DNA of 64,000 bases from Tubiluchus corallicola (GCA_030141605.1 JAQGDQ010000200.1:248001-312000), one strand, 5' to 3'; counted from the stretch's first letter, positions 1,890 through 44,400 are shown. Notes: generated by a model from the sequence alone, not told the origin. Numbers and translations: made by a program.

Positions 1890-2800
1890 AACCAAGTTTC
1901 AATGCATGAGTTTGGATCAACTGTGTTTGGATCAATTTTATCTTTAATTTTTTTCTCTCCGACCAAAAATAGCAAATTTTCCTGCTTTGATTCATACGTA
2001 TAATAAAATGACCAATACAATCTTTCTGCCTTGTTTCAAGCGCAGAAGAGTAAGTTCGGCTCGTTATCTTTGATTCATTCAAATGCCTCAGGCTTAGTCT
2101 AACTTCCCTGACTTAATTTAAATGCTTTGGGATCAATTGTAGCCCTTGTATTCCTGCTTTAAGTTCAGGAATCAGAATCTACTGTTTCAGAGTCAGCGCT
2201 ATTGCATTGCTTTGATTCAAAGTGCATTAGAATCTGTTTAATTAGAACTACTGCTTTGACTGATGTGCACCAGAATCAGACCAATTTTGTATATTGATTT
2301 AAATTCGCTAAGATAATTCTACTGTTTTGATTTAAGTGCGTTTGAATCAGCTCATTCATTCAACTTTGATTTACGTGACTTAGCTGCCAAGTCCAAACTT
2401 CTGCTTTGATTCAAGAGAATGATAGACTAGAACCAGCCAACCCTTTTGCGTTGATTCATTTGCATTGGAAATAGTCCAGTAAGTCCAGTACAACCTCCTT
2501 GAGTAAAATGAATTACAATCATCAATACACTCTTTTTTATTCAAGCGCGTTAGAAATCAGCCCATTTCATTTGCTTTGATTCAAGTGCATTAGAATGAGT
2601 TCATTCATCCTGCCTTAATTCAAAAGAATCCATCAGAATCAGTGCAATCGGCCCATCCCCCGGGCTGGATTCAACAGTACTGGAACCAGTCCAATGTTTT
2701 TGCTTTCATTCAAGGGCATCAGAGCTGTAAATCCTCTTGCTTTGATACAGTTGCACTAGAAATAGTCCAATACTGCCTGGTGCAGCGGAATTAGTCCCAT
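1890..2800 (-). repeat. Degenerate tandem array of ~39-bp units (minus-strand consensus about TGGACTGATTCTAATGCACTTGAATCAAAGCAGGATGAA)
   Basis: The plus-strand motif tgctttgattcaagtgcattagaatcagtcca recurs with heavy divergence, e.g. near 1982, 2208, 2251, 2402, 2572, 2701 and 2738. It lies directly downstream of the stop of family member 1. Confidence 0.7.
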
Positions 2801-3150
2801 CCTTCTACTTCTACTCTTGCCTCTAGTGCAGTAGTATCACCGAGATGCAAGCCCAATTCTCCTGCCGATGAATCTGCAGCAGAATATGGTATATCCGAAG
2901 TACCTTCCATTAAACCGGTCTGTCCCTCGTTTCCTGTAACGCGTTGATAATTGTGTATGCTTGGTAGCTCCGAAGCTTCTTTCATCCCTCCTACAATCAT
3001 AGCGCTATCTGAAAGGCTCAAGTGCTGTGCTAGTACGAGCTGGTCAGTATTAATGTAATAATAATTATTAATGACTGGAGTTTGACAACAAGGCATCTGT
3101 GATATGTGCGGTTGTCGTTGGAGATGTTGTTGTCTAAAGTATTGATGACG
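2791..3150 (-). CDS. Secreted DP-motif family member 1, 3' coding exon only (5' exon not identified)
   Basis: Acceptor tctctatcttttccggtgcag precedes 3150. The exon reads RHQYFRQQHLQRQP..PCCQTPVINNYYYINTDQ...AGELGLHLGDTTALEARVEVEGWD*, matching both family motifs in diverged form. The upstream part of ORF 2791-3570 looks intronic. Confidence 0.6.
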   Translation of the reverse strand, partial: RHQYFRQQHLQRQPHISQMPCCQTPVINNYYYINTDQLVLAQHLSLSDSAMIVGGMKEASELPSIHNYQRVTGNEGQTGLMEGTSDIPYSAADSSAGELGLHLGDTTALEARVEVEGWD

Positions 3151-3599
3151 CTGCACCGGAAAAGATAGAGACAAATCTATGAAGAGTAGAAGGTTAAGAA
3201 CGGAAATGTGTCCCAAGAAAAGGAATCTGCAAAATAAGATAACAACAAAACTAATAAAATTGCAGATCAACCAAAGACCGAAATTTATTCCTTTCTTTGG
3301 CTCGTTCTGTATTTCGTTGCAATATTCTACAATGTTTTTCTCATAGTATTTTACGATCTCGATGCGACCAGTTGATACTTGATAAAAATACAAATTTAAA
3401 AAGAAATGATTATGTCTTTTTGTAAAAAAATATAAAATACATATTACATGTTCAGATGAATACAAATAAATACGTGTGTTTGAGGTTAACAAAATAGTTA
3501 CCATCACATTCAGTAATTGTTGTAGCCTGCAAAATGGCACAAAGTTGAAGCCTTCAAAGTGTCCTTCCATATATGTAATATTGTTGCCTCAACATCGAA

Positions 3600-3851
3600 T
3601 GTCAGCCCTTGACATTAAATTTTTAAATGAATAGTGTTTCTTGACGCCATATTACATGGCGTGGCCATGACTTCCGGTCGCAAGGGAATGGGATTTGAGT
3701 TCTGAGGAAGGGCATCAGTTTGTGAATGATTGTTTCCACAACTGATACTCTTCTCTGAACATTTAAGAGCATCAGTTGTTGAAGGATTTCTTTCCAGAAT
3801 TGATGCTTCTCCTTGTGACAGAATCTCCTTGTGACCGACAGCGAACAACAT
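3600..3851 (-). pseudogene. Possible degenerate extra family member
   Basis: The ORF ends ...PCNMASRNTIHLKI*. Removing one A from the AAAAA run gives CNMASRNTIHLKFNVKG, similar to CGSNTINIVFHVNG of member 7. No signal peptide or C-terminal motif was found. Confidence 0.3.
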
Positions 3852-5537
3852 CTAATGTCGGAGAAATGGCAAATGGATCTTTTCCGCATGTTACTTTATG
3901 TAATGATCGTGACATGTGTATATCCAAATTACGTTTCACCTTTAAAATCTTAGTAGCTTACCTTGGTTTACGCATCGTTTTATTGATTGCTATCAGTTTG
4001 TTATTTCCCAAAAATATATTGCAACAAAAGCACCTTGTAACCGCACCTGATTACACCTGATCGCACCTTAACGCAAATTTAGTCTTTATTCATATCAAAC
4101 TCAATGACTGTACCACGTAGACCACCAGTTGGTTGGATTTTAAAGTTTCTAAGACAAATGTCGTATATAAAAAGCATTGCCGTATTATTTTATCCTTGAA
4201 AACTGGTTTCGTTCTGTTAACATGACATTAAGACGATAAAAAGTCTAAAATAAACTAATGACATATGCCGGTCGTGTATAAGCCGCATTAAGAACCATGT
4301 TTTTTTTTCTTTTTACATTTTGAAAACGTTCGATAAATCTCATTTTTACTCGTCTTTATCTTTTATATACAATTCGGAACATTGCAAGCCGGAGTCTAGC
4401 AGGAGCAAGTTGTGCTAAATTGGATGGTCGTAGCGATACCGGCATCTGATTCATTTTTCTGAAACAGTGAGCACACGATGTAATTTATCGTCTACAGCAA
4501 CTTGCCTAATAGATTTTTACTCGTCTGCAGATTCGATAAACGCTGCTTTACCCACTTTGTCGCACACAAACCTTTATTAAACATGCTTAATTTGAGTAAT
4601 ATATGGCATTATTTTGTAAAAAGTATGATATGAAACGTAAATGTTTAGATCATAGATCAATGTTCAAAAACATAGATATGAGCAATGATGAAAAATTTAA
4701 ATTTATCTTCGGCAATGATGATACGAAAGCGTTAGTATTAATTTGAAACTTTGTCAGAGATTATTTTAAAAGCAGTCAAAATAATTAAACGTCCGTCCAT
4801 TGTTACGTTTGTTACGGTATTTTATCATTTAATTGTCGTGTGTCAAATGAGTATATTATGAATCAAATTGTAATGTTGTGATTTATGAATCTGCCTTATT
4901 GTCATTAATATTTTGTAAATATGTGTTGTATAATTATTGTAATGTATTCGTGCAGGATTGTAAATCCAATAAATTAAATTAAATTAAACTTAAATTAAAA
5001 AATTTTTTGTCTCTGACAAACTAAACTGTTCTCGTGTGCGGGCTCGATATAAAATTTGTATACCGGAAAACCACGTCAGACTAATCAGAAGCAATCGTTT
5101 AGTCATGTGTTAACTAATAATAATAACTAATAACTGTTTCCGCTGTTAGTCGTGATGTCTCATTTAACTTCAAGCAAGAGACGATTTGCGTCAAACAGGT
5201 TTTTCAGACAGATTTTTTGCCATGTAGTATTAGCCACGTTCATATTGCAAATATCAAACAACGTCAAGCGCGATTTTTGTGTAGTACAAGATAACCTTGG
5301 GAACGCACACCATTCGCGTCCTTTTATTTTCTACCGTAGATTTAACATTTTGTAGTATTTCCACTTTTTGCTCATAGATGGCACAACTAGGAAAATGTTT
5401 CATGGAAGTGTTTGATTATTCATTGGTTAGAATGTGCAGTAGCCCTGCGCTTCAGTCTGCTGGTTGACATCACCTATGCTAATCACCTATGCACCTATGG
5501 TATCACTCACTCATACGTCAGTCAGTCACTCATTTTA

Positions 5538-5541
<4 letters not shown>

Positions 5542-7324: not shown

Positions 7325-7753
7325 TCAGCTTATCTCAAAGCGTGCGTTCCCTGCATTTGGATCTGACAGTAGATTTCCAAACTCGCCTCCTACTGCACTA
7401 GGAAATATTTCTTCCCCGTTACCTGCATCAGTGTCAAAGAGTGACTGCTGAACTCCATCGATATTAAGAATAATGTTAACTAAAGAACCGGAACAAGACG
7501 GGTTTCCTTCTTGTGGTCTAAACAGTCTTCGTCGGACGTGTTCACGTTGAAGAGCTTCAGTGTTTATAAGTATTTGCTGGATGAATCCATGTCCTTGCTG
7601 AGTTTGCGGCTCGCGTTGAAGACTTCGGGCGCTTTGAAGAACCTCTTCTATGAACTGCTGCTCTTTCTGGATATCACCAAGAGCTGATTGGCCTATTGGC
7701 GGGGCTGTAGAAAGTCCAAAACAACACATGGCTACCATCACAATGTACTTCAT
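7325..7753 (-). CDS. Secreted DP-motif family member 2 (142 aa)
   Basis: Signal-like MKYIVMVAMCCFGLSTA; two internal Q-FI-Q-IL helical repeats; SCSGSLVNIILNIDG; GGEFGNLLSDPNAGNARFEIS*. Single coding exon, with a putative 5'UTR exon donor (gtaag) at 8099. Confidence 0.85.
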   Translation of the reverse strand: MKYIVMVAMCCFGLSTAPPIGQSALGDIQKEQQFIEEVLQSARSLQREPQTQQGHGFIQQILINTEALQREHVRRRLFRPQEGNPSCSGSLVNIILNIDGVQQSLFDTDAGNGEEIFPSAVGGEFGNLLSDPNAGNARFEIS

Positions 7754-10488: not shown

Positions 10489-10686
10489 TTAGCCTACTTC
10501 TAAGCGTTTGATCTTTGCATGTGGATTTGATAGTAGATTTCCGAAGTCGCCCCCTAGTCCCACAATAGGTATGCGGAACAGTTGCACTTTTGGCAATCCG
10601 CTGACGGCTGTTTCGTCAACTGGTGGAGCCGTGGAGAGTTTAAAGCAACATACAATGAATAATGCTAGAATCACAATGTATTTCAT
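10489..10686 (-). CDS. Secreted DP-motif family member 3 (65 aa, internally deleted, possibly a pseudogene)
   Basis: The N-terminus is near-identical to member 4 (MKYIVILAL.IVCCF.LSTAPPVDETAVSG.PK). It lacks the Gln-rich and Cys-strand middle but keeps GGDFGNLLSNPHAKIKRLEVG* in frame. Confidence 0.65.
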   Translation of the reverse strand: MKYIVILALFIVCCFKLSTAPPVDETAVSGLPKVQLFRIPIVGLGGDFGNLLSNPHAKIKRLEVG

Positions 10687-11030
10687 CTCGCTGTAATATA
10701 TTAGTGGAAATACTTGCTGATGAATTCTGTAAAAAGGCTCTAAATACTCTCTCCCTTTAGATTACAGCAAGGCAATATATCTCTTGGTCTTTGTTAACTC
10801 CTAGTAAAAACAAAAAAAAACGTTTTATGCTTAAATACTTGGTAGTTCGTACATAAAACAGTAGATTATATCTGTAAATCAATACAAATTGCCAAGGTTT
10901 TATAAAAATATTCTTTTTCTTATAACAAACCTTTGAAAATAACATGCAATTTTTCACAGTTTAAAATGGAGAGCAAACTTCACGAAATTGTATAACCTAG
11001 TATATTTACGACACTTTATAACAGGTATGT
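10575..11030. repeat. Near-identical direct duplicate of 14211-14665
   Basis: About 455 bp align with few mismatches, covering the signal-peptide CDS, the 5'UTR and part of the intron. Similarity ends abruptly after acaggtatgt. Confidence 0.9.
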
Positions 11031-13881: not shown

Positions 13882-14322
13882 TTAGCCTACATCTATGCGT
13901 ATGTTCTTTGCATTTGGGTCTGACAGCACGTCACCCACGTCGCCCGGTACTGCAGAAGGTGGAAAAGTGTCAGATTCATCAGTTTCAAAATAAGGCGGCT
14001 GCTGAACCCCATTGATGTTAAGAACGATGTTGACTAAAGGACCTGAGCAACGTGTTTGGTCCTCTTCTGGTGGCCTAAACGGTGATGGTCGTCGTTCTTG
14101 TTCGCGTTGAAGAGCTTCAGCGTTTCGAAGTATATGCTGGATGAATCCCTGTCCTTGTTCCGGGCGTGACTCGTGTTGAAGACTTCGCGCGCTTTGAAGG
14201 ATCTGGTCTAGGAACTGCTGCTCTTTTGGAAAGCCGCTGACGGCTGTTTCGTCAACTGGTGGAGCAGTGGAGAGTTGAAAGCAACATACAATGCATAATG
14301 CTAGAATCACAATGTATTTCAT
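13882..14322 (-). CDS. Secreted DP-motif family member 4 (146 aa)
   Basis: Signal peptide; close paralog of member 2 (QSARSLQ.E...QG.GFIQ.IL.N.EALQRE); RCSGPLVNIVLNING; PGDVGDVLSDPNAKNIRIDVG*. 5'UTR acceptor gtttttaccag near 14436, donor at 14949. Confidence 0.85.
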   Translation of the reverse strand: MKYIVILALCIVCCFQLSTAPPVDETAVSGFPKEQQFLDQILQSARSLQHESRPEQGQGFIQHILRNAEALQREQERRPSPFRPPEEDQTRCSGPLVNIVLNINGVQQPPYFETDESDTFPPSAVPGDVGDVLSDPNAKNIRIDVG

Positions 14323-17469: not shown

Positions 17470-17844
17470 TTACGATACCTCTCTTCGAACTTGTATTGCA
17501 CTGGGGTCTGCAATACTTAGTCCTAAGTTGCCACCTAGTGAATATCCTTGTTCTTGAGGTGGTGCATCCACAACACGTACATCTTTCATGCCAACTATGC
17601 TCGATCTATTTTTTAGAGATCCATCATCATTGCCACCATCGTTTTTTACAACATCAAATGCAATATCATTAATGTTGAAAACAAAATTAATCGTTAGCTG
17701 GGATTTTGTGCATCGATGAAGTTGCCGTTGTTGTTGTGGTTCATTGTGTCTTCCACTAGTATGCTGCACGAATTCGTTAACTGGCAATCCAATGGTAAGG
17801 TTCAGATAACATAATATGATCTTCGCTAACGTTATGTGATTCAT
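17470..17844 (-). CDS. Secreted DP-motif family member 5 (124 aa)
   Basis: Signal-like MNHITLAKIILCYLNLTIG; RCTKSQLTINFVFNINDI; GGNLGLSIADPSAIQVRREVS*. Acceptor gtcctgcag lies 8 nt upstream of the ATG. Confidence 0.8.
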   Translation of the reverse strand: MNHITLAKIILCYLNLTIGLPVNEFVQHTSGRHNEPQQQRQLHRCTKSQLTINFVFNINDIAFDVVKNDGGNDDGSLKNRSSIVGMKDVRVVDAPPQEQGYSLGGNLGLSIADPSAIQVRREVS

Positions 17845-19850: not shown

Positions 19851-20300
19851 CTACTTTTTCTTCCCTGACGCAGATGAGCCAAGCGGATCACTCAGACTGA
19901 ATGAACCGTCTACGGCAACTGCTGCTGCAGTAAAAAATACTGGTTGTTCAGTAACTGGCTGAGTCTTTTCCACGAATCCAGGTATGCCATCAGTGCTGAC
20001 ATCACCGTTTATGTGAAATTGGATGTTGACCGTTGGCGGGCAATTGGCTGATGATGATTGTCGCCGCTCCGTTTCAAGCCTTAGAAGGGCAACTTGTCGC
20101 TGCAGTAGACTAATAAGTTGTTGTTGACTCTCTTGTACTTCATGACACTGCTGTGGAGCTGGTTGATTTTGTCTGTATTGCAGTTGTGATCTAAAGCTAT
20201 TACCAGGTTGAGGATTAGAAGTTCCACTGCCGCCTGATGTAAGCAAAAAGACATTACTGCCAATGAGTAGGTGCAGCAGAGCGAGTATCCAAATTTTCAT
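19851..20300 (-). CDS. Secreted DP-motif family member 6 (149 aa)
   Basis: Signal MKIWILALLHLLIGSNVFLLTSG; Gln-rich, coiled-coil-like middle; NCPPTVNIQFHINGD; DGSFSLSDPLGSSASGKKK*. Acceptor aatttcag lies 10 nt before the ATG, with a candidate donor near 20649. Confidence 0.8.
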   Translation of the reverse strand: MKIWILALLHLLIGSNVFLLTSGGSGTSNPQPGNSFRSQLQYRQNQPAPQQCHEVQESQQQLISLLQRQVALLRLETERRQSSSANCPPTVNIQFHINGDVSTDGIPGFVEKTQPVTEQPVFFTAAAVAVDGSFSLSDPLGSSASGKKK

Positions 20301-21828: not shown

Positions 21829-22380
21829 TCATTTTTTGCCGCTTTCAATACGCAACTGGTCTGCAGCAGGATCTGCTAAGTTGAATGTACCTGCTGCAAA
21901 ACTGTCTACCGGTGGTTCTGGTAACTGTCCCCCTTTAACATCTCCATTCACATGGAATACTATATTAATGGTGTTAGAGCCGCAAGATGGCGACTGCTGT
22001 GTAGGCTGCAACTCCAGAAACTGTATAGGCTGCTGTTGTTGTTGTTGACGCCCTAGCTGCTGCTGTCGTAGTTCCAACAGTGACGGCGACGGTTGTGATT
22101 GCTTAAACTGCTGGTTCTGCAGTTGCGCTGCCTGTGGCGTCAAGCTTTGCAGTAGCTGTAGCTGTTGTTGAGTAGGATTGAACGGTATGGATTGTGGCTG
22201 TAGCCGTATGATGGTTTGCTGTGGTTGCTGCGGTGTTTGTTGGTGCTGCTCTTGCATTCTTGGCGGTGATTGGCTTCGTTGTTGTGGTTGGGTTTCAGCA
22301 CTTGGGGACTCCGCTGCTGGAAAACACTGGACGTTACCAACAAAGAGCAGACTAACTAGCATCAGCATCCAAGCCTTCAT
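21829..22380 (-). CDS. Secreted DP-motif family member 7 (183 aa, poly-Gln rich)
   Basis: The true ATG is at 22380 (MKAWMLMLVSLLFVGNVQC), after acceptor gtttgaacag; long Q/P-rich linker; SCGSNTINIVFHVNGD; AGTFNLADPAADQLRIESGKK*. Confidence 0.85.
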   Translation of the reverse strand: MKAWMLMLVSLLFVGNVQCFPAAESPSAETQPQQRSQSPPRMQEQHQQTPQQPQQTIIRLQPQSIPFNPTQQQLQLLQSLTPQAAQLQNQQFKQSQPSPSLLELRQQQLGRQQQQQQPIQFLELQPTQQSPSCGSNTINIVFHVNGDVKGGQLPEPPVDSFAAGTFNLADPAADQLRIESGKK

Positions 22381-25872: not shown

Positions 25873-27064
<1,192 letters not shown>

Positions 27065-28545: not shown

Positions 28546-28552
28546 TATAAAA
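28546..28552 (+). promoter_or_regulatory. TATA box of the Gly/Tyr-rich gene
   Basis: TATAAAA lies ~75 nt upstream of a strong donor (G|gtaagc at 28625) whose intron ends at tttcag 28758, 4 nt before the ATG. Confidence 0.6.
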
Positions 28553-28762
28553 GACCAAAGTACTATAGCACTTTAGCAATAAGGATTGCTCCGTGAGCGT
28601 GTTAGTACTGCAGTCAAGTTCGTGGTAAGCGCAGAGATTCTGTTACTTTTTATTTATTATTTCTATGTCTGTAAATGCTTGATTTATTCTTGCATAGCTC
28701 TTTATTAGTCTTGGCGTTTTTTTGTTTTACATTCTTGACGTATGCTTCTTAGTTTCAGAAAA

Positions 28763-29860
28763 ATGGAATTGCGAGTTGTGTTTGCATTTCTCCTTCTGGT
28801 AGCGTCTGTGGGTGCAAGCCGACGCGGCAGTGGCAGCGGCTACGGTTATGGCTTCAGACGGGGATCTGGTTCTGGACGGGGATATTACCGCAGACCAGCC
28901 GCTCGCGACACACCTCAACCGGTTGTTCAACAACCGGTTGTTCAGCCAGTTGTACAACCGACGGTTGTTAAACCGGTTGTTATCCACACCAGCACTCCAA
29001 CACGGTATGGACAGGCCAGTTATGGAAGGCAGGGTGGTTCCGGGTATAGAATGCCTGGGCAATCCGGCTATGGTTATGGGCAGTCTGGCTACGGTCGCGG
29101 GCAAGCTGGCTATGGTTATGGACAGTCTGGCTACGGTCACGGGCAAGCTGGCTATGGTTATGGACAGTCTGGCTATGGTCACGGGCAAGCTGGCTATGGT
29201 TATGGACAGTCTGGCTATGGTCAAGGGCAAGCAGCTGGCTATGGTTATGGACAGTCTGGCTACGGTCATGGGCAGCCTGGCTATGGTTATGGACAGACTG
29301 GTACTGGTTACGGGCAAGCTGGCTATGGTTATGGACAGGCAGGTACTGGTTACGGGCAAGCTGGCTATGGTTATGGACAGGCCGGTACTGGCGAGCAAGC
29401 TGGCTATGGTTATGGACAAGCAGGTACTAGTTACGGGCAAGCTGACTATGGTTATGGACAGAATTCCAATTATGGGCGAGGTGGATATGGTCAGTCTGGC
29501 TATGGTTATGGTCAACCTGGCTATGGACGTGGCGGATACAATGCTGCAGGTTATTCAAACAGTGGATCACAACAATACCAACAACAGGGAGCTTCCAATT
29601 ATGGTTATGACCAGCGGCAAGGCTATGGACAATCCGGTGGATATGGTTACTCCAATCGAGAATCATCTGGCTACGGATACCAGCACGAACCGGGACGCTC
29701 TACTGGTTATGGCTACCAGGATAATGCATCTTCTGGTCATGGACATGGCCAACAGCATGGCTATGACGAAGCGACCGGATATGGAAACCAACGGTATGGA
29801 GCTTCTGGAAGTCAGCAGTATGCTGCCGCCGGTTACGGAAGGCAAGGCTATTACAACTAG
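28763..29860 (+). CDS. Secreted Gly/Tyr/Gln-rich repetitive structural protein (365 aa)
   Basis: Signal [18 protein letters not shown]; PVVQ repeats; about nine 14-aa (42-bp) [14 protein letters not shown]-type repeats; ends [15 protein letters not shown] near 29947. Confidence 0.85.
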
Positions 29861-30790: not shown

Positions 30791-31183
30791 TCACTTATAT
30801 CTTTTATACCCACTACTGGGCACTTCTATTCTGGCGTCGGCGGCTTCGGGATCATCCAGCACTAAACCAGTGTCTCCACCTACCACGTTAGGGAGATCTT
30901 CAGAATTTTCAGGCAACTTTTCTATCATTATCTCTGGAAAACGAGGAGGAGCCTGAGTTTTTGCTGTCGTTGTTGCCGTTGCTATTGTCTTTGCTGATGT
31001 TGATCGCATTGATCTTGATTTCCACGGGTTTTGAATGTTGTTAAAGTGAAAGAAATTTACCCGGGGTTTGTAAATTCCAGGAACCCATTGTGAAATTTCT
31101 TTTGCCGTAGGCATATGAATGGTCCAGTCAAATGAATGTAAGGGTGTTACCAAAATAAAGATTAAAACCAGCTTCCTACACAT
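30791..31183 (-). CDS. Secreted DP-motif family member 9 (130 aa, divergent)
   Basis: Signal MCRKLVLIFILVTPLHS; PRVNFFHFNNIQ (strand motif without the Cys); Thr-rich linker; GGDTGLVLDDPEAADARIEVPSSGYKRYK*. Acceptor ctttttacag lies 1 nt before the ATG, with a donor near 32004 and TATAAA near 32062. Confidence 0.8.
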   Translation of the reverse strand: MCRKLVLIFILVTPLHSFDWTIHMPTAKEISQWVPGIYKPRVNFFHFNNIQNPWKSRSMRSTSAKTIATATTTAKTQAPPRFPEIMIEKLPENSEDLPNVVGGDTGLVLDDPEAADARIEVPSSGYKRYK

Positions 31184-31452: not shown

Positions 31453-32615
31453 TGCCCATCAAAGCAGAGCAGGTGAGATCTGATATCTTGTCGCAACATT
31501 ACATAATCAGTCAGAGCCACCTATATGATCCTAGTGATACATAGCACTACATTTGAAGATACACACATACACCCTCACACACTGTAATTACACACTATTA
31601 TATAACACTGTTATTTCACAAGTGTTTAACAAAAAGCATTAATTGTAAAATAATGTAATAAAATTTTACATGTTGTTGGCCCCGAAAACTTTAATATATT
31701 AATTTATTTCTAAATGCTGCATTATTGCTAAGTTTATTCGTATTTGTAAGTATTAAAAACTTTATTCAAGGTAAAATGCTTTTACAGCATAACCAGAAGA
31801 GAAAACACATGAGACGATTATTCTCCATTAAATTTTGTAGTAGAGTCTATTCATAAAATTAACAAAATTTTTCTTTTTTCCCAGCATCATTTGACTATGA
31901 AAGTAAGTGCTTTATCTTTCGAGAAATTTCGATCATAGAGTCGCGACGTAAGCGATTGTAATTAAATTAAGTTTTATATGGAAATATTTGCACGCACATC
32001 TTACCTCGTTTCTCATTCAGTAATACAAGCGACCGCACAGGGTAAGATTTTGTGTAAGAAATTTATACTGCGCAAGAAATATTTATTATAAGCATCCGAA
32101 AAATAGTTTTCACTGTAAAAACGTTAAGTAAAATACATTACCGCGAATGTATATGAATAAATATGATCAAGTAACTAAACATTTTGTAAAATTCACTATA
32201 AAGGATGTTAGTGGGTAAAGGAAGAGGATTGACTTCCGAACAGTGTGCAGTGTAGGTAATGATGCCAACGACGATGCAAACCTCTTTTGGATGATTTTTG
32301 TTTAACTGTTTTTACTATGGCACACTACACTTCATAAACGGCGTGTATGGTGTATGATGAAAGAGTACATAAAACTGGAACAGGTGTACTTCAGTGCACA
32401 GTCCTGAAGCTCAGAATTTACTCCTGGACCTGCAATTGCGCAAAGAGGGCGAAAATTTGCAAAAAAAAACGTACCACAAATAAATTTAGAAGTATAGTTG
32501 TGAAATTGTTACTTTTACCGTCTTTATTGGTTATACGCTAACAACTACAAGGACTGTTCTAATTTTTTGTGCCAGTGACTTAATTGTAATTACTTAATGA
32601 TATTGCGTTGCAGTA

Positions 32616-32674
32616 ACAACAGGACGACAAGGACAAGGACAACGACAACGACAACGACAGCGACAGCGACAGCG

Positions 32675-32714
<40 letters not shown>

Positions 32715-32765
32715 GAGCAACAGCAGCAGCAACAATAACGTTATCAACAACAACAACAACAACAA
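32616..32765. repeat. (ACA/ACG/GCA)n compound trinucleotide repeat
   Basis: Direct inspection; explains the poly-T, poly-L and poly-V ORFs. Confidence 0.9.
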
Positions 32766-33362
32766 ATGCCCCGTGCAATGTCATGCCTTCTTTTCAAGAT
32801 TTTCTGATAGTGCACATCTACAATTATTTGTAGCTTTTGACTTCACCTTGACATGCAAAATTTAGTGTGATGTCCTGTAGATTAAGCGCAGTTTGTAGAA
32901 TTGTGCTTTTTGAATGTAAGGTTGTTTAACATTCTAATAGTTTGAGTCTGATCAATTATCGACCAAGACAAAAAGCTGAAAGCTGACTGGTCATCGGTGG
33001 CGGGTTTAGACTGACTGTGAAATTCAGCAATGTCTGACCTGTTTTGAAACTTGACCGTGACAGTTTAGGAAGCAAAAGTGTTTAGAGAAGATGTGCACTC
33101 GTCCGAATGACGCTAACACGTCTAAAATATGTCATATAAGATAAATTTACTGCAAAAAGTTTAAACACTAACAAAATAATAATCGTTTAGTAGTCACAGT
33201 TTATTTATACATATATGCGATTAAATATTTCTTTATACATTGGCCTTGAGTTGTCACAATTGCTTACATGTGCAAGACTCATAATTAGGTAACCCTTCCA
33301 AGAATGATGTATTTATCGTTTCACCAGTGACCTGACAATAGAATATTAGTTCAGCAATTATC

Positions 33363-34331
33363 TTAACGTCCGTATCCGCTGCTTCTACCACCTCCATACC
33401 CTCCTCCGCTGATGGTTCTCTGCTGTTGGACCACTCTTGTGGATCGAGCTCTTGCTGGAAGGGTATTAGCAGGTCCAGAATGCACTGGAAGTGACTCAAG
33501 CTGGACAGCCTGGAACTGTAGATTGGGTGTCCTCTGATAACCGTAAGCCGCTCCTTGTTCGGTTTTGCCTTCTCCGGAGGCCGTTTGTGTGTACTGTTGT
33601 GTGGCGTCCTGGCTGGCTTCACGGGAAGCAGCAAGTTGAATTCCTGCCTCGCCCGTTCCGGAACCTTCTCGGACCTGTTCGCTCTTTTCGTTCTGGCGAG
33701 CGAATCCGGACCGGAATCTGGTGCCGATAACGACTTGCTCAGTTTGTGCTGCAGTGCGGGCTTCTCGAGGTGCCAGTTCGTTGGCTTCGTTCCTGAACTG
33801 GTTGAAGTCAAAACCTTCAACATTGATGTAGTTGTTGCCAAAGTTGTCAAAACCAAAGGCTTGTGCATCAATGTTACCAAAGTTGTTGGGGTCAATGTTG
33901 CCATTGCCACCAAAACCTTGCAAGCCTGCTGAAGCGAACTGAGAAGCGGCAGAAGAGCCACCAAAAGACCTTGATGAACTAGTGCCAAATGAGCGCCCTC
34001 CACCAAATGATCGTCCACCACCAAATGATCGTCCACCACTAAATGAACGGCCACCTCCGAAAGTTCCACCAAATGACTGACCTCGACTAACGGGTGCGAC
34101 GCTCTGAACGAACCTCTGCTGCTGCTGTTGAAAGCCCCCACGGTTCTGGAAGCCACCTCGGAGTTGAGCTCCACCAAATCCTACTTGATTGCCGTGTCCG
34201 CCTCCACCGCGAAATTGCTGACCACATCCTCCTCGTCCACAGCCACCTTGAGAACCACCGCACCCTCCTTGTCCGCAGCAAATGGCACTGCCAAGACAGG
34301 CCAATAGAATGGAAATGACGATAACTTTCAT
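33363..34331 (-). CDS. Secreted Gly-rich protein A (322 aa) with a novel C-terminal domain
   Basis: ATG at 34331 follows acceptor tttttacag|a; signal MKVIVISILLACLGSAIC; CGxxGG repeats; GGGRSF repeats; ~150-aa domain shared with 39825-40703. Donor near 35255 and TATATAAA at 35335-35342. Confidence 0.85.
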   Translation of the reverse strand: MKVIVISILLACLGSAICCGQGGCGGSQGGCGRGGCGQQFRGGGGHGNQVGFGGAQLRGGFQNRGGFQQQQQRFVQSVAPVSRGQSFGGTFGGGRSFSGGRSFGGGRSFGGGRSFGTSSSRSFGGSSAASQFASAGLQGFGGNGNIDPNNFGNIDAQAFGFDNFGNNYINVEGFDFNQFRNEANELAPREARTAAQTEQVVIGTRFRSGFARQNEKSEQVREGSGTGEAGIQLAASREASQDATQQYTQTASGEGKTEQGAAYGYQRTPNLQFQAVQLESLPVHSGPANTLPARARSTRVVQQQRTISGGGYGGGRSSGYGR

Positions 34332-35334
34332 TCTGTAAAAAAAACAAAGTAAATGTAAAATAAAAAATTTCGGCTCGTAGACCTGAATATTCACTCAAAA
34401 ATTGATGATGTACTAGAGACTTCAATGATGTACAACACTCAATATTTAGAACAAAGTCGATGATGCCCACTTGATGACTTAAACGACTTGAACGCAACAT
34501 GATGCTTTATGACAGTAACTCACAAGTAATACGCTACAAGTAAGCTTTTTGAAAGAATCTGGACCTGTGGTTATTAGGCAGTATAATTTCACTTTTCACT
34601 CATTCTGTTCTCGGCCGATTTTGTAAAACTGCACTAACTGCAGAGTTTTTAGTAAAATAGCATTTTTGTGCCCCAGTGTTGAATAAACAACAAGACAAGC
34701 CGATTCAGCAACTAGGATAAGGTTCATTTTTTTGGATGATTTTTGCCCTGTTGCCTTATAATTTCTGCTGACAATGTCACTAACGAAAAGACAAAAAATG
34801 TGGCGCAACTGATTATTTATTTTAATTTTGCACTGACGTTTCTTTACGTGTGTTGACCCCAATATGATTTCTTATTGAGCTAATTAAATAACTCAGTTAT
34901 TATCAAAGAGCATTAATAAAAATACTTTGAGTTTTCACTCAAATCCATCACAAGCATTGCTAAAAATGATAATACCAAGATTTCATTATGCTATAGCATT
35001 CTTTGTAATTTTACCTACATGAATGTGCAGCAACCGTTCGCTCATTTTGCACAAAATAAAATAAATGTGCAGCAAATTAAACACTAACATTTCTGTAAAA
35101 AAGAAAATCTGATATTGTTTCGTTGTCGACACTTTTTAGCTAATGCGATAAAGACTCGTATTATACTGAATATTAGTTGCAAATTTTTATTTGAGAAAGT
35201 GGTAATATGAACTAAGCACTTAAGTCAAACTATCGTACAAATTTATTTATCTTACCTCTCTGACAGGCGCAGTTTCTTATTGGACTAGTCTTGCACAGTT
35301 AAGCAATTGGCAAAGATGTTTGGCTTTGATTGAA

Positions 35335-35342
35335 TTTATATA
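35335..35342 (-). promoter_or_regulatory. TATA box of Gly-rich protein A gene
   Basis: TATATAAA on the minus strand, ~80 nt upstream of a gtaag donor. Confidence 0.5.
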
Positions 35343-37639
35343 CGATCTCCCCATCTCACCTGACCCACATTTTCACACCTGGGATGCTGAATGAAATCGA
35401 AAAGTTGTTTTGTGCCGATTAACTTCTCTGTTCAGAGCTTTGGCGTTCAAGGAGCGTTAAGACGACGTAAACCGGTACTTAGTGAATGCTTGACACCAGC
35501 AACCTGCAGAGTTGCTAAATTAATAACCCAGAAATGATTGAAACCATTATTAAGCCACGATGAATTGAAAATAAAAGTTGACCGCAATTATTATACATGG
35601 TTTATAGAATCTTCGTCTGAACTCGCAGAAACTGTAACAGGCTAACCTTTTTAGTTTATTTGAAGTCATGTAGGTTACTCGTTTGCGAACCAACTTTATA
35701 AAGTGCCCTATTTCGCCGTGATACCGGTCTCGTTCATGTAAATAAAACGTTTTTAGCCTATTTTTACTGTAACATCACACCAGATACAATATTTTAATTT
35801 TTTACAAAAAACGAATCATGGCATCGATAAATTGTGCTCTAAATGACATGCTCGCAAAAAACAGACTATGACAACAATATATGACGTCCTACTAAGTTAA
35901 ATGACATATGCAGGCAGTTGGTCAAAAAAACTCAATAAGCAAGTAAACCCAATGCTTCACATTTTAGGCTAGTTTTTTTTTGTCGACTAGCCCACATTTT
36001 TAATCATTAACCGCATAGCTATACATCATTTTCCTTTTTAACACTAACCTTAAGCTGTCGTTGCTTTATGCTTACTGCATATGAGTTTTATCTTGGTTTT
36101 ATTAATAATATTATAGATAATTTCTGGTAGCATAATATAACTCATAAAAGTTTCTTGATCTCTCAAACTGTTAAACTATTTACTCTTTTGAAAACTTAAG
36201 TGTATGAAACCGAGGAATTCGATCTGTTTAAAATACGAGCAGCTCTGTTATATTAATAATACAGAAAATGTTTAAATAATTGAAATAAATTTTTTTGTGA
36301 ACTTTAAAGAACTGCTATTGGTTTTTTATACACGATTTTTCCATTCCAGTAAATCGGAAAAAAATTCATACTTTATGACTTTTTGGTAAGCAAATGTTGT
36401 GGCACCAACCATACAGGTCTGAAAAACTTTCACACAAAAATCATGACGGCGAGCTGAGTAGAAATTCCGAGCAAAGAACTGAAAAAACATAAATTTACCG
36501 CAAATTTTAAAAATAGATTCAGTCAGAACATTTTACCCAGCGACTGTTATTTCCAGTCTTCTTTTTATAAGTTCTTGTTCCTGTAACGTCTTGTTTATTT
36601 TTGTTTAGTTTACAGCAGCGTATATAAGTGTATGTTTATAACATGGAATTTTATTCTACAAAAAAGTCCTTATGTACAGCAAACTTTCGGGTAACTGCTC
36701 TTGTTGAAACGATTAGTATACAATAGCGTTTAACGTGTGTGTGTTTGTTATAATGTGGAATTCTTTTCTGCAATAATGCTTCAACTCAGTTAAATTTAAG
36801 TCAACTCATTCAGTTCAATTCAGTTTCAAAACCCTGATTACATTTTTGTACAATTTTAACTCTATTGATATACGTAGAAAATAGAACACCAAAGCAGCAG
36901 CTAATTGTTAAGGGCTAAAGTTCAAAATGCCGAAGCACAAACGTTCAAGTAAGATTTAAGCCATAGACGCTTCATGACATTGTTATTTCGGAACTACAGA
37001 TTAAAACGATAAACCATAAGCTACACCAGGTTATCGCTTTCTGACATCAATAATGCGTGCCTAACTTCCGATTTTCAGAAAAATGCGTATCTTAACAGAG
37101 AAGATTGCCCGACTTTTTGTACAGTTTGATCCATTTTTACAAATTTATTTTCTTATTATTAGCAGACTTTACTTGAAGCTGTATTTTTGCGAGTTGCGCT
37201 TTAGTGGTTGGTAACAAAACGAAGTCATTGATTAATATCTAGGCTGTAACGAACAAGTTTAGTTAAAATAACATTTGGTAGTTATTGAACATGTTAGTTT
37301 TGAGTTAGAAACTGTTGTAAGCAGCTGAAGCGTTTGTTTTTATTTCCAACTGCGGAAAAGGTTATAATCGTGGCGTAAAAAGTAGATGGTTTATTTGCAG
37401 AACCGTGGAGAAACTTCATTAATAGTCGAACGATAACATTTATTTTGTTCTTTTTAATCATTTTACAATTTATACTACCTTTATATAGAATTTATCATCA
37501 AATTGCACCAATGCACAAATGTTTGTTTTTTAAACTATACGAATGTATGTCAAAGAGTACGTCGCAAAATGGCACAGAAAATGCTTATACAAAAATTAAA
37601 TTTAAGGAGGAAATCTCAGGCCTGCTCTGTCATGTTTAC

Positions 37640-37750: not shown

Positions 37751-38326
37751 GGGTAATAATTATTCAGATAAACCGCAATGGTTTATAAACATTCTGGCCT
37801 TCACAATCATGGTCTACTAGTTAAAAATTGAAATTTATTTGCACTCTTAAAATTACATAGAAGTAGTTACACTATATTGTCATAAAGTCACATTTCCATC
37901 TTTTCTGAGGGAGGAGTATATACTATACTTCTTATCTGTTGAATTTTTCATCGATTTAGTATTTTAGGAACATGCACTGTCGCAATGTTAAAAAGCACTA
38001 ATGTACCTACTCAGAATTCTTGAGCAGGTCACACTTGACATATTATCATTATTTGATTTCCGTGCTCGGTTTGCACTATATTTAAAATAGGCCTATTTAA
38101 AATAACTGTTACAATTTTTTAGTGACATTATATAAAACTTTATAATATTCGTCGAAGGAACATATAATAAATGGTGTCTGAATGACATAACATTCTACCT
38201 GTGAGTTGTGCATTTTAACTGCTTATCGTTCCTTGTCATTTTAGTACGTGCGGTTTCACTGATGTCACGTCATATTCTACTTTAAATTGCTATTTAAAGG
38301 TGGCGCCACTGTGTCATCACACTATA

Positions 38327-38922
<596 letters not shown>

Positions 38923-39824: not shown

Positions 39825-40703
39825 TTACTGAGGCAGGAGATTGCGAGGACCAGAATGAACCGGAAGTGGTTCGACTCTAACTGGCTGATAGGCGACTCTG
39901 GGATTGCCCGACAACTGGTAGGTTGCTCCCTGCTCAGTTTTGCCTTCTCCGCTAGCTTGCTGCGTGTACGCTTGTGTGGCGTCCTGAGTAGCTGATCTAC
40001 TGGCCGTGAGTTCAATTCCGGCAGTTCCGCTTCCGCTTCCTTGTCTGTTGGCAGAGCTGGACTCCGACTGGCGGGCAAATCCGGAACTGTACTTGCTGCC
40101 GATAACCACTTGCTCGTCAAGTCCGGCATTGACTGCTTCTCGGGGAGCATTGGCGGCTGCATTGTTCCTCCAGGTGTTGAAGTCGAAAGCATCAAGAGCG
40201 ACATAGGCTCTGCCAAAGTTGTCAAAACCAAAAGCGCTGGCATCGATGTTAGCAAAGTTGTCAATGCTAAAGGTTCCTTGTCCAACGAATCTGTTTCCTC
40301 CAGTAACAACTACTGGACTCGTTCGCGCAACTGTAGCAGCTCCACTGTCAATGACACGTATGCCACTAAGACCGCCGCCAGTTGTAACAAACCTTCTGCC
40401 TCCTCCGCCAAGGAACTGCAGGCCACTTCTGCCGATTCCACTGCCTCCACCAGAGATGAATCGCGTGCCAGTTCCACCAAATCCACCAAATCTGCCTCCA
40501 CCAGAAATGAATCGCGTGCCAGTTCCGCCATACCTGCCTGCACCTGAGATGAATCGCGTGCCAATGCCGCCAGTCCTGCCTCCACCGTAGATGCCTCTGC
40601 CAGACCTATACGTTCTCAAGCCCAATATACCGCCTTCTCCACGGGCATCGCAAAGAACGCCGACAACACAACCCAGGAACACGAACGCAATGAGCTGGCG
40701 CAT
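39825..40703 (-). CDS. Secreted Gly-rich protein B (292 aa), paralog of protein A
   Basis: Signal MRQLIAFVFLGCVVGVLC; three GTRFISGGG-type repeats; shared domain NFANIDASAFGFDNFG..FDFN.WRN...APREA...EQVVIG...SGFARQ.E...GSG.G.AGI.L.ASR.A.QDATQ.YTQ.ASGEGKTEQGA.Y...LPVHSGP. Acceptor 1 nt before the ATG; donor near 41701; TATAAAA at 41779-41785. Confidence 0.85.
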   Translation of the reverse strand: MRQLIAFVFLGCVVGVLCDARGEGGILGLRTYRSGRGIYGGGRTGGIGTRFISGAGRYGGTGTRFISGGGRFGGFGGTGTRFISGGGSGIGRSGLQFLGGGGRRFVTTGGGLSGIRVIDSGAATVARTSPVVVTGGNRFVGQGTFSIDNFANIDASAFGFDNFGRAYVALDAFDFNTWRNNAAANAPREAVNAGLDEQVVIGSKYSSGFARQSESSSANRQGSGSGTAGIELTASRSATQDATQAYTQQASGEGKTEQGATYQLSGNPRVAYQPVRVEPLPVHSGPRNLLPQ

Positions 40704-40799
40704 CCTGTATAATTACCAATAAAATCATTTTCTCTCTTTTTAAAATTACACTAGTGGAAGACAACTTTAATAAACTTTGTATATATATATATATATATA

Positions 40800-41498
40800 T
40801 ATAAGCAATTTCTAAACTAAAATGAGGCCTGCTTTATTTGTAAAGGTCATAAAACTATTACATTTCATTGATTGAAGCAATTCGTGTTTGTACAAAAACT
40901 AGAATTTACAATGTTTGTTTAAAAGTGAGTGAAAAGTGAGTGAGTCTTCCCGACAAAAGAGTACAAGGAGCCATGATGATAATCACGGCTGGCAGCCTAT
41001 GTTGTAGGAAAATTATCAACGTATCACGATCGTCATCAAATGTATATGATTAAAAATATAAATAAATAAATACATATATATATATATATATATACATAAA
41101 TATTTATTTATTTATATTTTTAATTATGTATATGTGAGGTGTGTACATACGTAATCATCGTGTATTGCATTTATACATAAATAACCAATTATGCTAGTAA
41201 TAATACTGCATCTTTTCGTTAATACAGTATGCAGTTTTTACCATAATTATCAAAATAATGGATCATATACATTTGATGACGATCGTGATACGTTGATAAT
41301 TTTCCTACAACATAGGCTGCCAGCCGTGATTATCATGGCTCCTTGTACTCTTTTGTCGGGAAGACTCACTCACTTTTAAACAAACATCATAAATTCTAGT
41401 TTTTGTACAAACATGAATTGCTTCAATCAATGAAATGTAATAGTTTTATGACCTTTACAAATAAAGCAGGCCTCATTTTAGTTTAGAAATTGCTTATA
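40800..41498. repeat. Large fold-back inverted duplication (arms 40800-41050 and 41262-41498) with an internal palindrome at 41051-41123
   Basis: The ~240-bp arms are near-perfectly complementary apart from small indels. It is flanked by (TA)n and lies in the 5'UTR intron of Gly-rich gene B. Confidence 0.9.
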
Positions 41499-44400
41499 AG
41501 AATTCCATTTCTCTTATAATTGGAAAATACTTATATATCGGAAAATTCTGTTACAATACTTTAAATTGGAAAAACGTTTACTTGTGCTGTAAGTTTCAAT
41601 AAATTAACTCGAACAAAGTAAAACTAAACTATGCATCTCAGAAGTTCTTGAAATGTTTGCACGTTTACATAATATGACACAACTTAAAAATATTTTCGTA
41701 CCTGTTCCAATTTTTTGTCACACACAAACTTTGTCGTACACTGTCAAGCAAAAGGTGCAGACCACGCCCGCTGTCGTCTTTTATACCTTCTTTTCTCGCG
41801 TGATCAGTCAGGTAACGGAAAAATAACAGATACCTGTGTATCATCTATTAGCTTAAAAACAGGTAACAACTACCATAATGACAGATAGTTGTTGTGCAAT
41901 TAGAGAGCGGCCACATCATGAATCACAATCCCTCACAAAAACTTGAAGGTTAAATGCACTGAAAAATGTATTTTGGTACCTGGGGAAAAAGGATGCATTC
42001 TGAGACTATCTTTGACTTGTCTATCAAAGATACATCTTTGATAAGTTTGATTAATGTCCAAAAATGTGTTTAATTGTCCCAGCCAAATTTCTTGCTTTTT
42101 TAGCTCATTAGACAGTAATACTGCACCCTGTCAACAAGCATAATCTAACATTACCTTATTTTACATAAGTGAACTACATTAGCAACTTTAAAGCATGGTG
42201 ATTTGTGGTAGCAAAATTTCGGACCAAGTTTTTACCAGTTTAAAATTCTTCAGCTATATGTAAAAGTCGAAAAACCGAGACAACAAAAAACCAACGAAGA
42301 GGGGTTCAAAAATTCACGACACTAAAATACAGTCTGATAGTATCACACCCGAGCCACATGAGGTTTAAAGATTTCAAACAGAAAACTGCAGCAAAAGCTA
42401 TCTTTTCATCTTTCATTATTGTTAAATCCAAAAACGTGCCTGAGCAGATACAATAATTTTAGTCCTAAATGTTTTAGGCCTGATACTCCATTTAATTTTA
42501 CTATATCAGTATCATAGTAACAATTTTAGACAATATACAACTTCTCTATAACATTGAAGTCAACTTACAATAATGTATTGAATTATTTTGTCATGAAATT
42601 TGATCTTAGTTCTGTACTTTTTAATCTATATTGCACCAGTCGTTCAGACTAATACACATCTTCTGTTTTACATAGTGTTTGTCAGATTACATGTTTTGTT
42701 TTCGTGTCCAGTGACTGGGATGTGTGTATTTTTTTATTTGTAACAAATAAAATGATTTTGTACTACTAATGGAAACTACTCTTTATTCGTCTTTGTAACT
42801 ATGATTAATTCCCTCTTACAGCATACGACATGGGACGATTATAGGGTTATAGGTAAAAAATGAATCGTAAAATTAATGACAAATCTGAATCCCGCCCACG
42901 ATCTGACAGGCGTCTGCAGTCATAGGTGCCTCGTTTTCAATTAATTACATTGCACAGTAATTTGCAAGCAGAACATGCACAAAATTTTTGTATAATTCTT
43001 CAGTTTGGGGAGGCACAAAAACTCATGGCGGGTGGGCACAAAAATAAAAAACACAAAGCAAGTTTCACCACTGCGTTACTTTCACTGCCACAGTGACTCT
43101 GCAGTAAACCGTCATCTTGAAAACGTTTTCGAAGGCCCAGGGCAAAATGGTTAAAAAGTAATTTGTAAAAATGCGCCGACAACGCGACAATGTTATATAG
43201 CAATACTGTCACGATATTTTTCTTATTTTTTTAACATTGGAAGAATATCATCAGAATATTGCCTCCATATTCTTTAGTATTGAAAGAGCATTATTACTTT
43301 GTCAGCACGTTCAACGATATTTTTTAATGTTGAAAGAGCATTGTCTTGGAGACTCTGGTGCCAATGTGGGTAATACAAGCAGTCTTCTCTTCCTTTGTTT
43401 AAAAAATAATTTCGTTAAGTATTGTAACAAAAAGTGGAATAACTTGTTGGATAAAAAATTGCACTGCGGCAGATGTCGTGGACTGTCTGATCTTGGTGTT
43501 GAAATTATTGTAATTTTATTTAAATACCGGCAATATTAATTTTACGTTATCATTACAGTATTAGTGTTTCGGCGCAAAGTAAAAACACTGCGTTGATATT
43601 CCAGTAGGTAAAAGAGAGGTCCGCACAGCAAATATGGCGCTTAGGCTCAAAACAGCTTCATTATACAAGTAAGACTTAATGAACTATGCAGATTAATATT
43701 CCACTCTTTGGCACTCTATTTTTCAGTCTATTTCGAAATTTCATCTACATCAGATTTTCGTTTTTTTTGGTAATTTTGTGTTGCACTCTTGATTTCACAA
43801 ATAAAATTAACAAACACAGGTTGAAAACAAAGCTGAAATAATACTGAGAAAGAGTAAAGCTGCGTTAAATGAGAAAAAACGTCCTACCATGACTAATACT
43901 GTCATTATTTATTTTTCACTGACACGACCCCAGTTTGCCCCCTAAATACCCTTCATCAAATTAAGAAAAGTTACAAGGCTTATTCAGCTTTTTATTGGCT
44001 ACAAAGAGCCATATAAACACATATTTAAGTCATTTTAACGACCCATTACCTACTTTGACAACTGCATGGCAACATAAGACATACAATACTAGAGGACACG
44101 TATACACGACATTTTGCAAATTTTTCCAAACATAACCCAAAACTGCTGATGGCAAGGCCATCTTCTTACCGCAAAATGTTAAAGGAAACAGAGATAAGCA
44201 TGTTCGCAAACGTAGTAGTTTTGCTAAGTACGTGTTACACCTACAACAACGTAACTAATGTCGATTATTTTAAAACTATTCCGCAGTGTCCGTTACATAA
44301 TTATTTGCAGAAAATGTGATTTAATTACAATAGTTTTACCAATGCAATGACAGCTAGTCTTACAACTAATTTAAAAGAAATAATCATGGCGATGATTTAT

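What the first reader, a model, noticed from the sequence alone, without database searches (positions are those of the whole stretch)
2791..41800. Twelve secreted orphan genes from three families form one 39-kb block with shared gene architecture
Seen in sequence: every identifiable gene in this interval is small and apparently secreted. Most have a single coding exon preceded by a 5'UTR intron whose acceptor lies 1-10 nt before the ATG (17844, 20300, 22380, 28763, 31183, 34331, 40703), and several have a TATA box before a short first exon. The Gly/Tyr gene is interleaved in the opposite orientation. Established: co-regulated structural-gene complexes (insect chorion and cuticle clusters, amniote epidermal differentiation complex) show this layout. 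Inference: a dedicated locus for building an extracellular material such as cuticle, larval adhesive, tube, egg coat or shell matrix.
Basis: inference. Interest (0 to 1): 0.7.

Follow-up and report, generated by a model that had tools for sequence, protein, structure and literature searches.

The report
Priapulid cluster of candidate cuticle proteins
Twelve small genes from three unrelated protein families lie side by side in the genome of what is likely a priapulid (penis worm); all are predicted to be secreted and are likely building blocks of the worm's moulted cuticle, but whether they are switched on together is untested.

Summary
The block is real: 12 genes in 2791-41800, all with a predicted signal peptide, in three families. 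The animal is likely a priapulid. Nine genes form one divergent family (mostly Gln-rich; Cys plus a short beta-type motif; C-terminal LxDP motif). Its only true relatives found are three unnamed proteins. Two Gly/Arg/Phe-rich genes carry an undescribed ~150-residue domain shared with 7 Priapulus caudatus genes, so they are not orphans. That domain shows period-2 conservation over 41 residues, a beta-strand signature. One gene is a Gly/Tyr repeat protein. A spliced RNA set from a relative holds a transcript like gene 12.

Best reading (0.55): lineage-specific structural proteins of the cuticle, gathered by local duplication. The 'dedicated co-regulated complex' is not supported so far. Neighbouring RAD1 has the same one-coding-exon layout, and no shared promoter motif exceeds chance. 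The P. caudatus relatives lie on 7 different scaffolds, and the nine-gene family has no P. caudatus hit. No known cuticle family's defining motif is present. This is a known kind of locus with new protein families, in a phylum for which I found no cuticle-protein paper.

The parts
2791..3975 (-). Gene 1, LxDP family; predicted two coding exons (3962-3975 with ATG; 2791-3226), 149 aa
   Evidence: Phase-2 donor at 3961 and acceptor give an open frame with a hydrophobic N-terminus; held-out HMM E 1.3e-4; splice not shown by reads
7325..7753 (-). Gene 2, LxDP family, 142 aa, one coding exon; candidate 5'UTR donor at 8099
   Evidence: held-out HMM E 4.9e-8; dN/dS 0.43 against gene 4
10489..10686 (-). 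Gene 3, 65 aa, short recombinant member: 5' end nearly identical to gene 4, middle missing in frame, 3' end from an older paralogue
   Evidence: 92% over 457 nt with the gene 4 region; first 108 coding nt 100/108 to gene 4, last 75 nt 51/75 to gene 4 and 53/75 to gene 2
13882..14322 (-). Gene 4, LxDP family, 146 aa; candidate TATA 15095, donor 14949
   Evidence: relatives P0014 (112/146 identical) and P0015 (108/139)
17470..17844 (-). Gene 5, LxDP family, 124 aa; acceptor 8 nt before ATG
   Evidence: held-out HMM E 3.1e-7
19851..20300 (-). Gene 6, LxDP family, 149 aa; acceptor 10 nt before ATG, candidate donor 20649
   Evidence: held-out HMM E 7.3e-6
21829..22380 (-). Gene 7, LxDP family, 183 aa, 25% Gln; acceptor 9 nt before ATG, candidate donor 22993, TATA 23173
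   Evidence: likely orthologue P0016 144/177 identical
25873..27064 (-). Gene 8, LxDP family; predicted two coding exons (27058-27064 with ATG; 25873-26186), 106 aa
   Evidence: Phase-1 donor at 27057 gives an open frame; held-out HMM E 4.9e-8
28546..29860 (+). Gene 9, Gly/Tyr repeat protein, 365 aa (ATG 28763; 30% Gly, 17% Tyr, 13% Gln; 42-nt unit x 9.6); candidate TATA 28546, donor 28625
   Evidence: no Pfam family above cut-off; homologues not searched
30791..31183 (-). Gene 10, divergent LxDP member without the Cys, 130 aa; acceptor 1 nt before ATG
   Evidence: held-out HMM E 2e-4
33363..35342 (-). Gene 11, Gly-rich protein with the priapulid ~150-aa domain, 322 aa (CDS 33363-34331); candidate TATA 35342, donor 35255
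39825..41785 (-). Gene 12, Gly-rich protein with the priapulid domain, 292 aa (CDS 39825-40703); candidate TATA 41785, donor 41701; a long inverted repeat fills the intron
   Evidence: a like transcript in spliced run X2 (15 differences in 152 nt)
39828..40283 (-). Conserved ~150-aa domain of gene 12 (in gene 11: 33456-33908), with period-2 conservation over 41 residues
   Evidence: dN/dS 0.38 between genes 11 and 12

Best explanation
These twelve genes, in a likely priapulid genome, encode predicted secreted, low-complexity proteins that are likely structural components of the epidermal cuticle (body cuticle or larval lorica), and the block likely grew by local duplication beside IVD-RAD1. 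Shown: three families, signal-peptide-like N-termini, purifying selection between paralogues, relatives in other species, and a transcript like gene 12 in a relative. Inferred mechanism: epidermal cells secrete the proteins around the moult. The Gly/Tyr repeat protein would cross-link through Tyr. The two basic Gly/Arg/Phe-rich proteins would pack through their beta-strand domain. The mostly acidic LxDP proteins would join through a Cys (single in 5 of the 7 that have it) and an Asn-rich beta motif. I do not claim an old, conserved three-family complex: the cluster may be recent, and co-regulation is untested.
For: Signal-peptide-like N-termini in 12 of 12; no catalytic or binding family in Pfam. 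Gene 9 has 38 GYG triplets and 17% Tyr. Tyr in Gly/Tyr repeats is tied to cross-linking in silkworm CPG proteins (PMC2542385, passages) and nematode epicuticlins (PMC9612446, abstract and sections 14 and 17). All 7 named homologous genes of the genes 11/12 domain are P. caudatus, and most have the same signal peptide + Gly-rich + domain layout. Priapulids have a three-layered moulting cuticle (PMC5011709, passages) and a larval lorica (PMC8588615, passages). Period-2 conservation in the domain: 0.93 against 0.69 on alternate positions; 1 of 5000 whole-domain shuffles reached it. dN/dS 0.38 and 0.43. Leave-one-out HMMs recover 8 of 9 LxDP genes at E up to 1.3e-3, against a best non-member of 0.25; gene 3 joins by DNA identity. 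Gene 3's recombinant structure points to unequal exchange in the array.
Against: No expression in epidermis or at the moult, no localisation and no proteomics. No R&R, ChtBD2, GYR-family or collagen signature, so there is no sequence link to chitin or to a known cuticle family. No moulting-type element is enriched in the promoters: an ROR/HR3-type pattern recalled from memory occurs in 2 of 10 (P 0.12) and 4 times in the window against 1.39 expected (8 of 100 shuffles). AlphaFold gave no usable model of the domain (pLDDT 44, no strands) and no strand in gene 4 (pLDDT 61, pTM 0.27), so the beta reading rests on the conservation pattern and motif make-up alone. Egg coats, mucus and adhesives use proteins of the same make-up (established knowledge). 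The taxon rests on one family's homologues; RAD1 and IVD were not searched for taxonomy.
Confidence: 0.55

Rival explanations
1. The genes build another secreted material: egg envelope, mucus or an adhesive gland secretion, not cuticle.
For: Gly/Tyr repeats, Gly/Arg-rich tracts and clustered, fast-evolving secreted genes are typical of chorion and adhesive proteins too (established knowledge). No chitin-binding motif was found. The LxDP family is narrower in range than the phylum (no P. caudatus hit), as reproductive or gland proteins often are.
Against: The genes 11/12 family is kept as at least 7 genes in P. caudatus and interleaves across species in the tree, which fits a phylum-wide body structure. 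The cuticle is the one large matrix every priapulid rebuilds repeatedly.
Confidence: 0.2
2. The families are neighbours without a common job: the nine LxDP genes are precursors of processed, possibly amidated signalling or defence peptides, and only genes 9, 11 and 12 are structural.
For: 5 of 9 LxDP genes and 3 of 3 relatives end in Gly or Gly plus Lys, the usual amidation signal (signal recalled). Conservation concentrates in the last ~25 residues, which gene 3 keeps while lacking the middle. No shared promoter motif. No profile similarity between the families (probability 0.1%).
Against: No dibasic site lies directly before the conserved C-terminal stretch. 4 of 9 do not end in an amidation signal, and the ends are not independent. 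The Cys plus beta motif in mid-protein is conserved too. Genes 9 and 10 are interleaved, so the families are mixed, not just adjacent.
Confidence: 0.15
3. The block is an old, co-regulated structural-gene complex of the chorion or epidermal-differentiation-complex type, kept linked across priapulids.
For: Three unrelated secreted families with no other recognisable gene between them over 39 kb; 11 of 12 on one strand; TATA-like boxes before short first exons.
Against: 7 P. caudatus family members on 7 scaffolds, four of them over 660 kb; no P. caudatus LxDP protein; no shared cis-motif; layout shared with RAD1.
Confidence: 0.15
4. Many of the ORFs are chance frames or dead copies.
For: No RNA is shown for 11 of 12 genes; gene 3 lacks its middle; several genes have no AATAAA/ATTAAA within 400 nt of the stop (5 of 12).
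Against: Open frames with shared motifs across 9 paralogues, intact relatives at 76-81% identity, dN/dS below 0.5, raised GC in the coding parts (0.39-0.54 against 0.35).
Confidence: 0.03

Closest known systems
Lepidopteran glycine-rich cuticular proteins (CPG) and hypothetical cuticular proteins (CPH)
   Same: Secreted, low-complexity, Gly/Tyr-rich, lineage-restricted, no chitin-binding domain; Tyr proposed for cross-linking (PMC2542385, PMC10138643, passages).
   Different: CPG is described by multiple GGYGG/GGxGG repeats; gene 9 has none and uses GYGYGQ repeats (10 copies); genes 11 and 12 have 2 and 1 GGxGG. Genes 11/12 add a conserved 150-aa domain. Different phylum; no homology shown.
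Nematode epicuticlins (Asu-EPIC-1 type)
   Same: Signal peptide followed by Tyr-bearing tandem repeats, two-exon gene, predicted disorder (PMC9612446, abstract and two sections).
   Different: Epicuticlin repeats are 49-51 aa with GYR and YGD motifs; gene 9's unit is 14 aa (7-aa sub-unit), it has one GYR, and PF02756 does not hit.
Uncharacterised Priapulus caudatus proteins XP_014667236, XP_014673000/XP_014672999, XP_014681743, XP_014668245, XP_014661568, XP_014678992, XP_014681461
   Same: True homologues of genes 11 and 12: same ~150-aa domain (51-63% identity), most with a signal peptide and Gly-rich N-part.
   Different: They carry only automatic names based on composition (PE-PGRS-like, PopA1-like, glycine-rich RNA-binding-like), have no Pfam family, and lie on 7 different scaffolds, not in one block.
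Clustered structural-gene complexes (insect chorion loci, amniote epidermal differentiation complex; recalled, not tested by a call)
   Same: Several unrelated small secreted or structural families in one interval, one coding exon after a short first exon, turnover by unequal exchange.
   Different: Co-regulation, shared cis-elements and conserved linkage, which define those complexes, are not shown here; two of the three were tested and not found.

Membership tests
Arthropod CPR / CPAP cuticular proteins | R&R consensus or ChtBD2 chitin-binding domain | tested here: not met
   No such Pfam hit at E up to 1 for 11 block genes, gene 8 exon 2 or 14 family members
Lepidopteran CPG | Signal peptide and glycine-rich sequence | tested here: met
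   Genes 9, 11, 12: 21-30% Gly, hydrophobic N-terminus
Lepidopteran CPG | Multiple GGYGG or GGxGG repeats | tested here: not met
   GGYGG 0/1/0 and GGxGG 0/2/1 in genes 9/11/12; definition from PMC10138643 passages
Lepidopteran CPG | Epidermal expression at the moult | not testable with these tools
   No staged or tissue RNA available
Nematode epicuticlins | Signal peptide plus Tyr-bearing tandem repeats | tested here: met
   Gene 9: 42-nt unit x 9.6, 17% Tyr
Nematode epicuticlins | GYR (PF02756) and YGD motifs in each 49-51-aa repeat | tested here: not met
   One GYR, no PF02756 hit, 14-aa unit
Cuticle collagens | Long Gly-X-Y run | tested here: not met
   Longest run 6 triplets
Co-regulated structural-gene complex (chorion/EDC type) | Several unrelated secreted or structural families in one uninterrupted block | tested here: met
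Co-regulated structural-gene complex (chorion/EDC type) | Shared cis-regulatory motifs | tested here: inconclusive
   13 recalled motifs and de novo 6-8-mers in 10 candidate promoters: none above chance; promoters are predicted, power is low
Co-regulated structural-gene complex (chorion/EDC type) | Linkage conserved in relatives | tested here: inconclusive
   7 P. caudatus homologues on 7 scaffolds, no LxDP hit there; fragmented assembly, RAD1/IVD scaffold not checked
Co-regulated structural-gene complex (chorion/EDC type) | Co-expression in one tissue and stage | not testable with these tools
   Only one RNA-like contig set, laid on gene 12 alone
Neuropeptide / peptide-hormone precursors (LxDP family) | Dibasic cleavage site directly before the conserved peptide | tested here: not met
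   Dibasic pairs lie mid-protein or at the very end
Neuropeptide / peptide-hormone precursors (LxDP family) | C-terminal amidation signal | tested here: inconclusive
   5 of 9 window genes, 3 of 3 relatives; not independent

The most novel reading that the evidence does not exclude
The block holds part of the protein half of the priapulid cuticle, built from families unrelated to arthropod CPR proteins and nematode collagens. A phylum-wide, self-assembling beta-strand domain with basic Gly/Arg/Phe tails would form the scaffold, acidic LxDP proteins would co-assemble by charge and a single Cys, and the Gly/Tyr protein would harden it. That would be a third, independent protein solution to the ecdysozoan cuticle, in the lineage that may be sister to all other moulting animals.
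Probability: 0.3. Interest if true: 0.65.

Novelty: new member of a known kind. Interest (0 to 1): 0.4.

Why it matters
Priapulids may be the sister group of all other moulting animals (PMC10280001, first third read). My searches found no paper on their cuticle proteins and none citing six of the P. caudatus accessions. If these genes are cuticular, they give concrete candidates, including a new conserved domain, for asking whether arthropod, nematode and scalidophoran cuticles share any structural protein. As a locus type it is ordinary: clusters of lineage-specific secreted low-complexity genes occur in many animals.

Tried and rejected
No whole genome is held, so neither further family members nor synteny could be read directly.

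Family and structure searches. Pfam: nothing above cut-off for any block protein. PDB sequence searches with both profiles: only chance-level hits (E 0.038 or worse). ESM Atlas: no usable hit for the domain, only scores under 0.8 for gene 4. AlphaFold models too poor for a fold search. A homo-trimer prediction of the domain was not available, so self-assembly is untested. Rfam: 0 matches.

Related loci for the domain. None in viral contigs (0 of 170 pattern hits) or metagenome contigs (0 of 421). The one prokaryotic locus (1 of 193) is a low-complexity repeat frame and was rejected. The two bacterial proteins among the 4 LxDP profile hits are Listeria-Bacteroides repeat proteins that score by summing 5-7 short stretches; rejected.

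Sequencing runs. No RNA holder listed for 28300-35500, which is no evidence either way. Run X2 shows no cover over gene 12's 5' part and intron, also no evidence. Expression of genes 1-11 in X2 was not tested. Gene 9 was not searched for homologues beyond Pfam.

Promoters. Nothing above chance.

Earlier findings of the scan: nothing by sequence or place; one loosely similar case by words.

Considered and dropped: trans-splicing as the cause of the AG just before the ATG. Each tested gene has a candidate donor upstream, but reads would be needed to exclude it. Supplements of the papers were not opened.
Full report
What is there. Between 2791 and 41800 lie twelve small reading frames, about 17% of the interval. 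Ten are single coding exons. Genes 1 and 8 need a short coding first exon; strong donors in the right phase give open frames of 149 and 106 aa. All twelve begin with a hydrophobic stretch. Of 77 ATG ORFs of 60 aa or more in the whole window, 12 have a signal-peptide-like start and a hydrophilic remainder, and 9 of those are block genes. Genes 1 and 8 (split) and gene 3 fell outside that screen. No Rfam family matches.

Three families. (A) Nine genes (1-8, 10) share a central Cys plus V/I-N-I-x-F/L-N/H-I/V-N/D motif and a C-terminal G-x-x-L-x-D-P-x-A-x-x-x-R motif (alignments). Leave-one-out profiles recover 8 of 9 among 1097 stop-to-stop segments at E 4e-9 to 1.3e-3, with the best non-member at 0.25; gene 3 was missed (E 1.1) and joins by DNA identity. 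No tenth member is in the window. Seven carry the Cys, five of them as the only mature Cys. Seven have predicted pI 4.6-6.6. (B) Gene 9, on the other strand, is 30% Gly and 17% Tyr with a 42-nt unit in 9.6 copies. (C) Genes 11 and 12 have a basic Gly/Arg/Phe-rich N-part and a shared ~150-aa domain (60% identical). Families A and C are unrelated. Selection keeps the frames: dN/dS 0.43 for genes 2/4 and 0.38 for the domain of genes 11/12. Gene 3 is a recombinant: 100 of its first 108 coding bases match gene 4, while its last 75 match gene 4 (51) no better than gene 2 (53). The array therefore turns over by unequal exchange (inference).

Relatives. The family C domain found 6 proteins among 155 candidates and 11 among 7987 scored, 12 distinct in all. 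Seven are P. caudatus genes and five are unnamed Logan proteins; none is named from another taxon. The window is therefore likely a priapulid, but not P. caudatus: the domains are 51-63% identical, and that genome is 45% GC (PMC10280001, table). The tree interleaves P. caudatus and unnamed rows, with only 2 of 11 inner branches well supported. For family A, the word search gave 3 unnamed proteins among 7484 candidates: two like gene 4 (77-78% identical) and one like gene 7 (81%). The full HMM scan of 1.84 billion representatives gave 4 hits: two of these three and two bacterial repeat proteins that are chance. No P. caudatus member appeared, so family A is younger, faster or unannotated there. 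Gene 9 was not searched beyond Pfam.

Expression. Run X1 is DNA nearly identical to the window and may be its source, so it is not independent. Run X2 is spliced across IVD introns and 93-96% identical in the IVD exon pieces listed, so it is RNA of a close relative. It holds a piece like gene 12's domain (15 differences in 152 nt).

Architecture and regulation. A strict acceptor test passes 5 of 10 genes against 4.3% of random ATGs. But RAD1 has the same layout, TATA-like boxes precede 26 of 90 background donor-like sites, and neither 13 recalled motifs nor de novo 6-8-mers are shared above chance among 10 candidate promoters. An ROR/HR3-type site sits about 20 nt before gene 11's TATA, but 4 such sites in the window against 1.39 expected is not significant. 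In P. caudatus the 7 family C genes lie on scaffolds of 7 different lengths, four over 660 kb. With an N50 of about 210 kb they could still share a chromosome, but they are not one tandem block.

How it most likely works. Shown: secreted-type, low-complexity proteins under constraint, without any known domain. Inferred: they are matrix proteins, and in a priapulid the main matrix is the three-layered moulted cuticle and larval lorica (PMC5011709 and PMC8588615, passages). Gene 9 resembles in make-up the Tyr-cross-linked CPG proteins and epicuticlins without meeting their motif definitions. In family C, 41 residues show alternate-position conservation (0.93 against 0.69; 1 of 5000 shuffles), with small residues and Gln on the conserved face, as in a long beta-strand or hairpin that packs into sheets. 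AlphaFold did not confirm this (pLDDT 44 on 7 sequences). Family A would add disulphide and short beta contacts and opposite charge; this is a hypothesis only (one search gave helices and coil, pTM 0.27). Confidence in the cuticle reading is 0.55. Rivals are another secreted material (0.2), family A as peptide precursors (0.15), and artefact (0.03). A conserved co-regulated complex (0.15) is compatible with the cuticle reading but not supported by the two tests I could run.

Comparison and novelty. The proteins work like low-complexity cuticular proteins but are members of no described family (membership table). The locus type is known. New are the family C domain, which has no Pfam, PDB or Atlas match, and family A. 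Ten paper searches showed no description of priapulid cuticle proteins or of six of these accessions; the library lacks most subscription journals, and older ultrastructural or biochemical work may exist. Papers seen: PMC10280001 (first of three parts), PMC9612446 (abstract, sections 14 and 17), PMC2542385, PMC10138643, PMC5011709, PMC8588615 and PMC11793982 (passages); the rest as listings only. The chorion and EDC comparisons, the amidation signal and the motif patterns are recalled.

Verdict. Observation largely confirmed, with 'orphan' and 'shared architecture' overstated. Interpretation partly supported. New member of a known kind; interest 0.4.

Noticed in passing
window 57660 (-) and 59208-60044 (+): IVD and RAD1 lie head to head; RAD1 is a single coding exon with an acceptor-like site 8 nt before its ATG. 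Run X2 is spliced across IVD introns.
   Followed up: partly
window 40800-41498, 38323-38697, 16805-17088, 46403-46482: Long self-complementary (foldback or MITE-like) elements, one filling the first intron of gene 12.
   Followed up: no
window 10489-11030 and 13882-14665: Gene 3 shares 457 nt at 92% with gene 4, upstream sequence included, but its 3' end is an older paralogue: likely unequal crossover or gene conversion.
   Followed up: yes
window about 49450-50550 and 56650-57450: High-copy repeats inside and near IVD introns (summed contig depth in X1 in the thousands), some also in RNA-like run X2.
   Followed up: no
window 35361-35371 (-) and 23539-23549 (-): ROR/HR3-type sites upstream of genes 11 and 7; the first lies about 20 nt before the TATA. 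Not enriched over chance.
   Followed up: partly
P0001 (unnamed Logan protein): Its N-terminus resembles gene 12 while its domain is closest to gene 11 (79%): another paralogue or a sign of exchange between the two.
   Followed up: no
P0002, P0011 (P. caudatus models): Both lack the signal peptide that the other family members have and begin with odd sequence, likely mis-predicted 5' ends; P0011 also stops before the domain's end.
   Followed up: no
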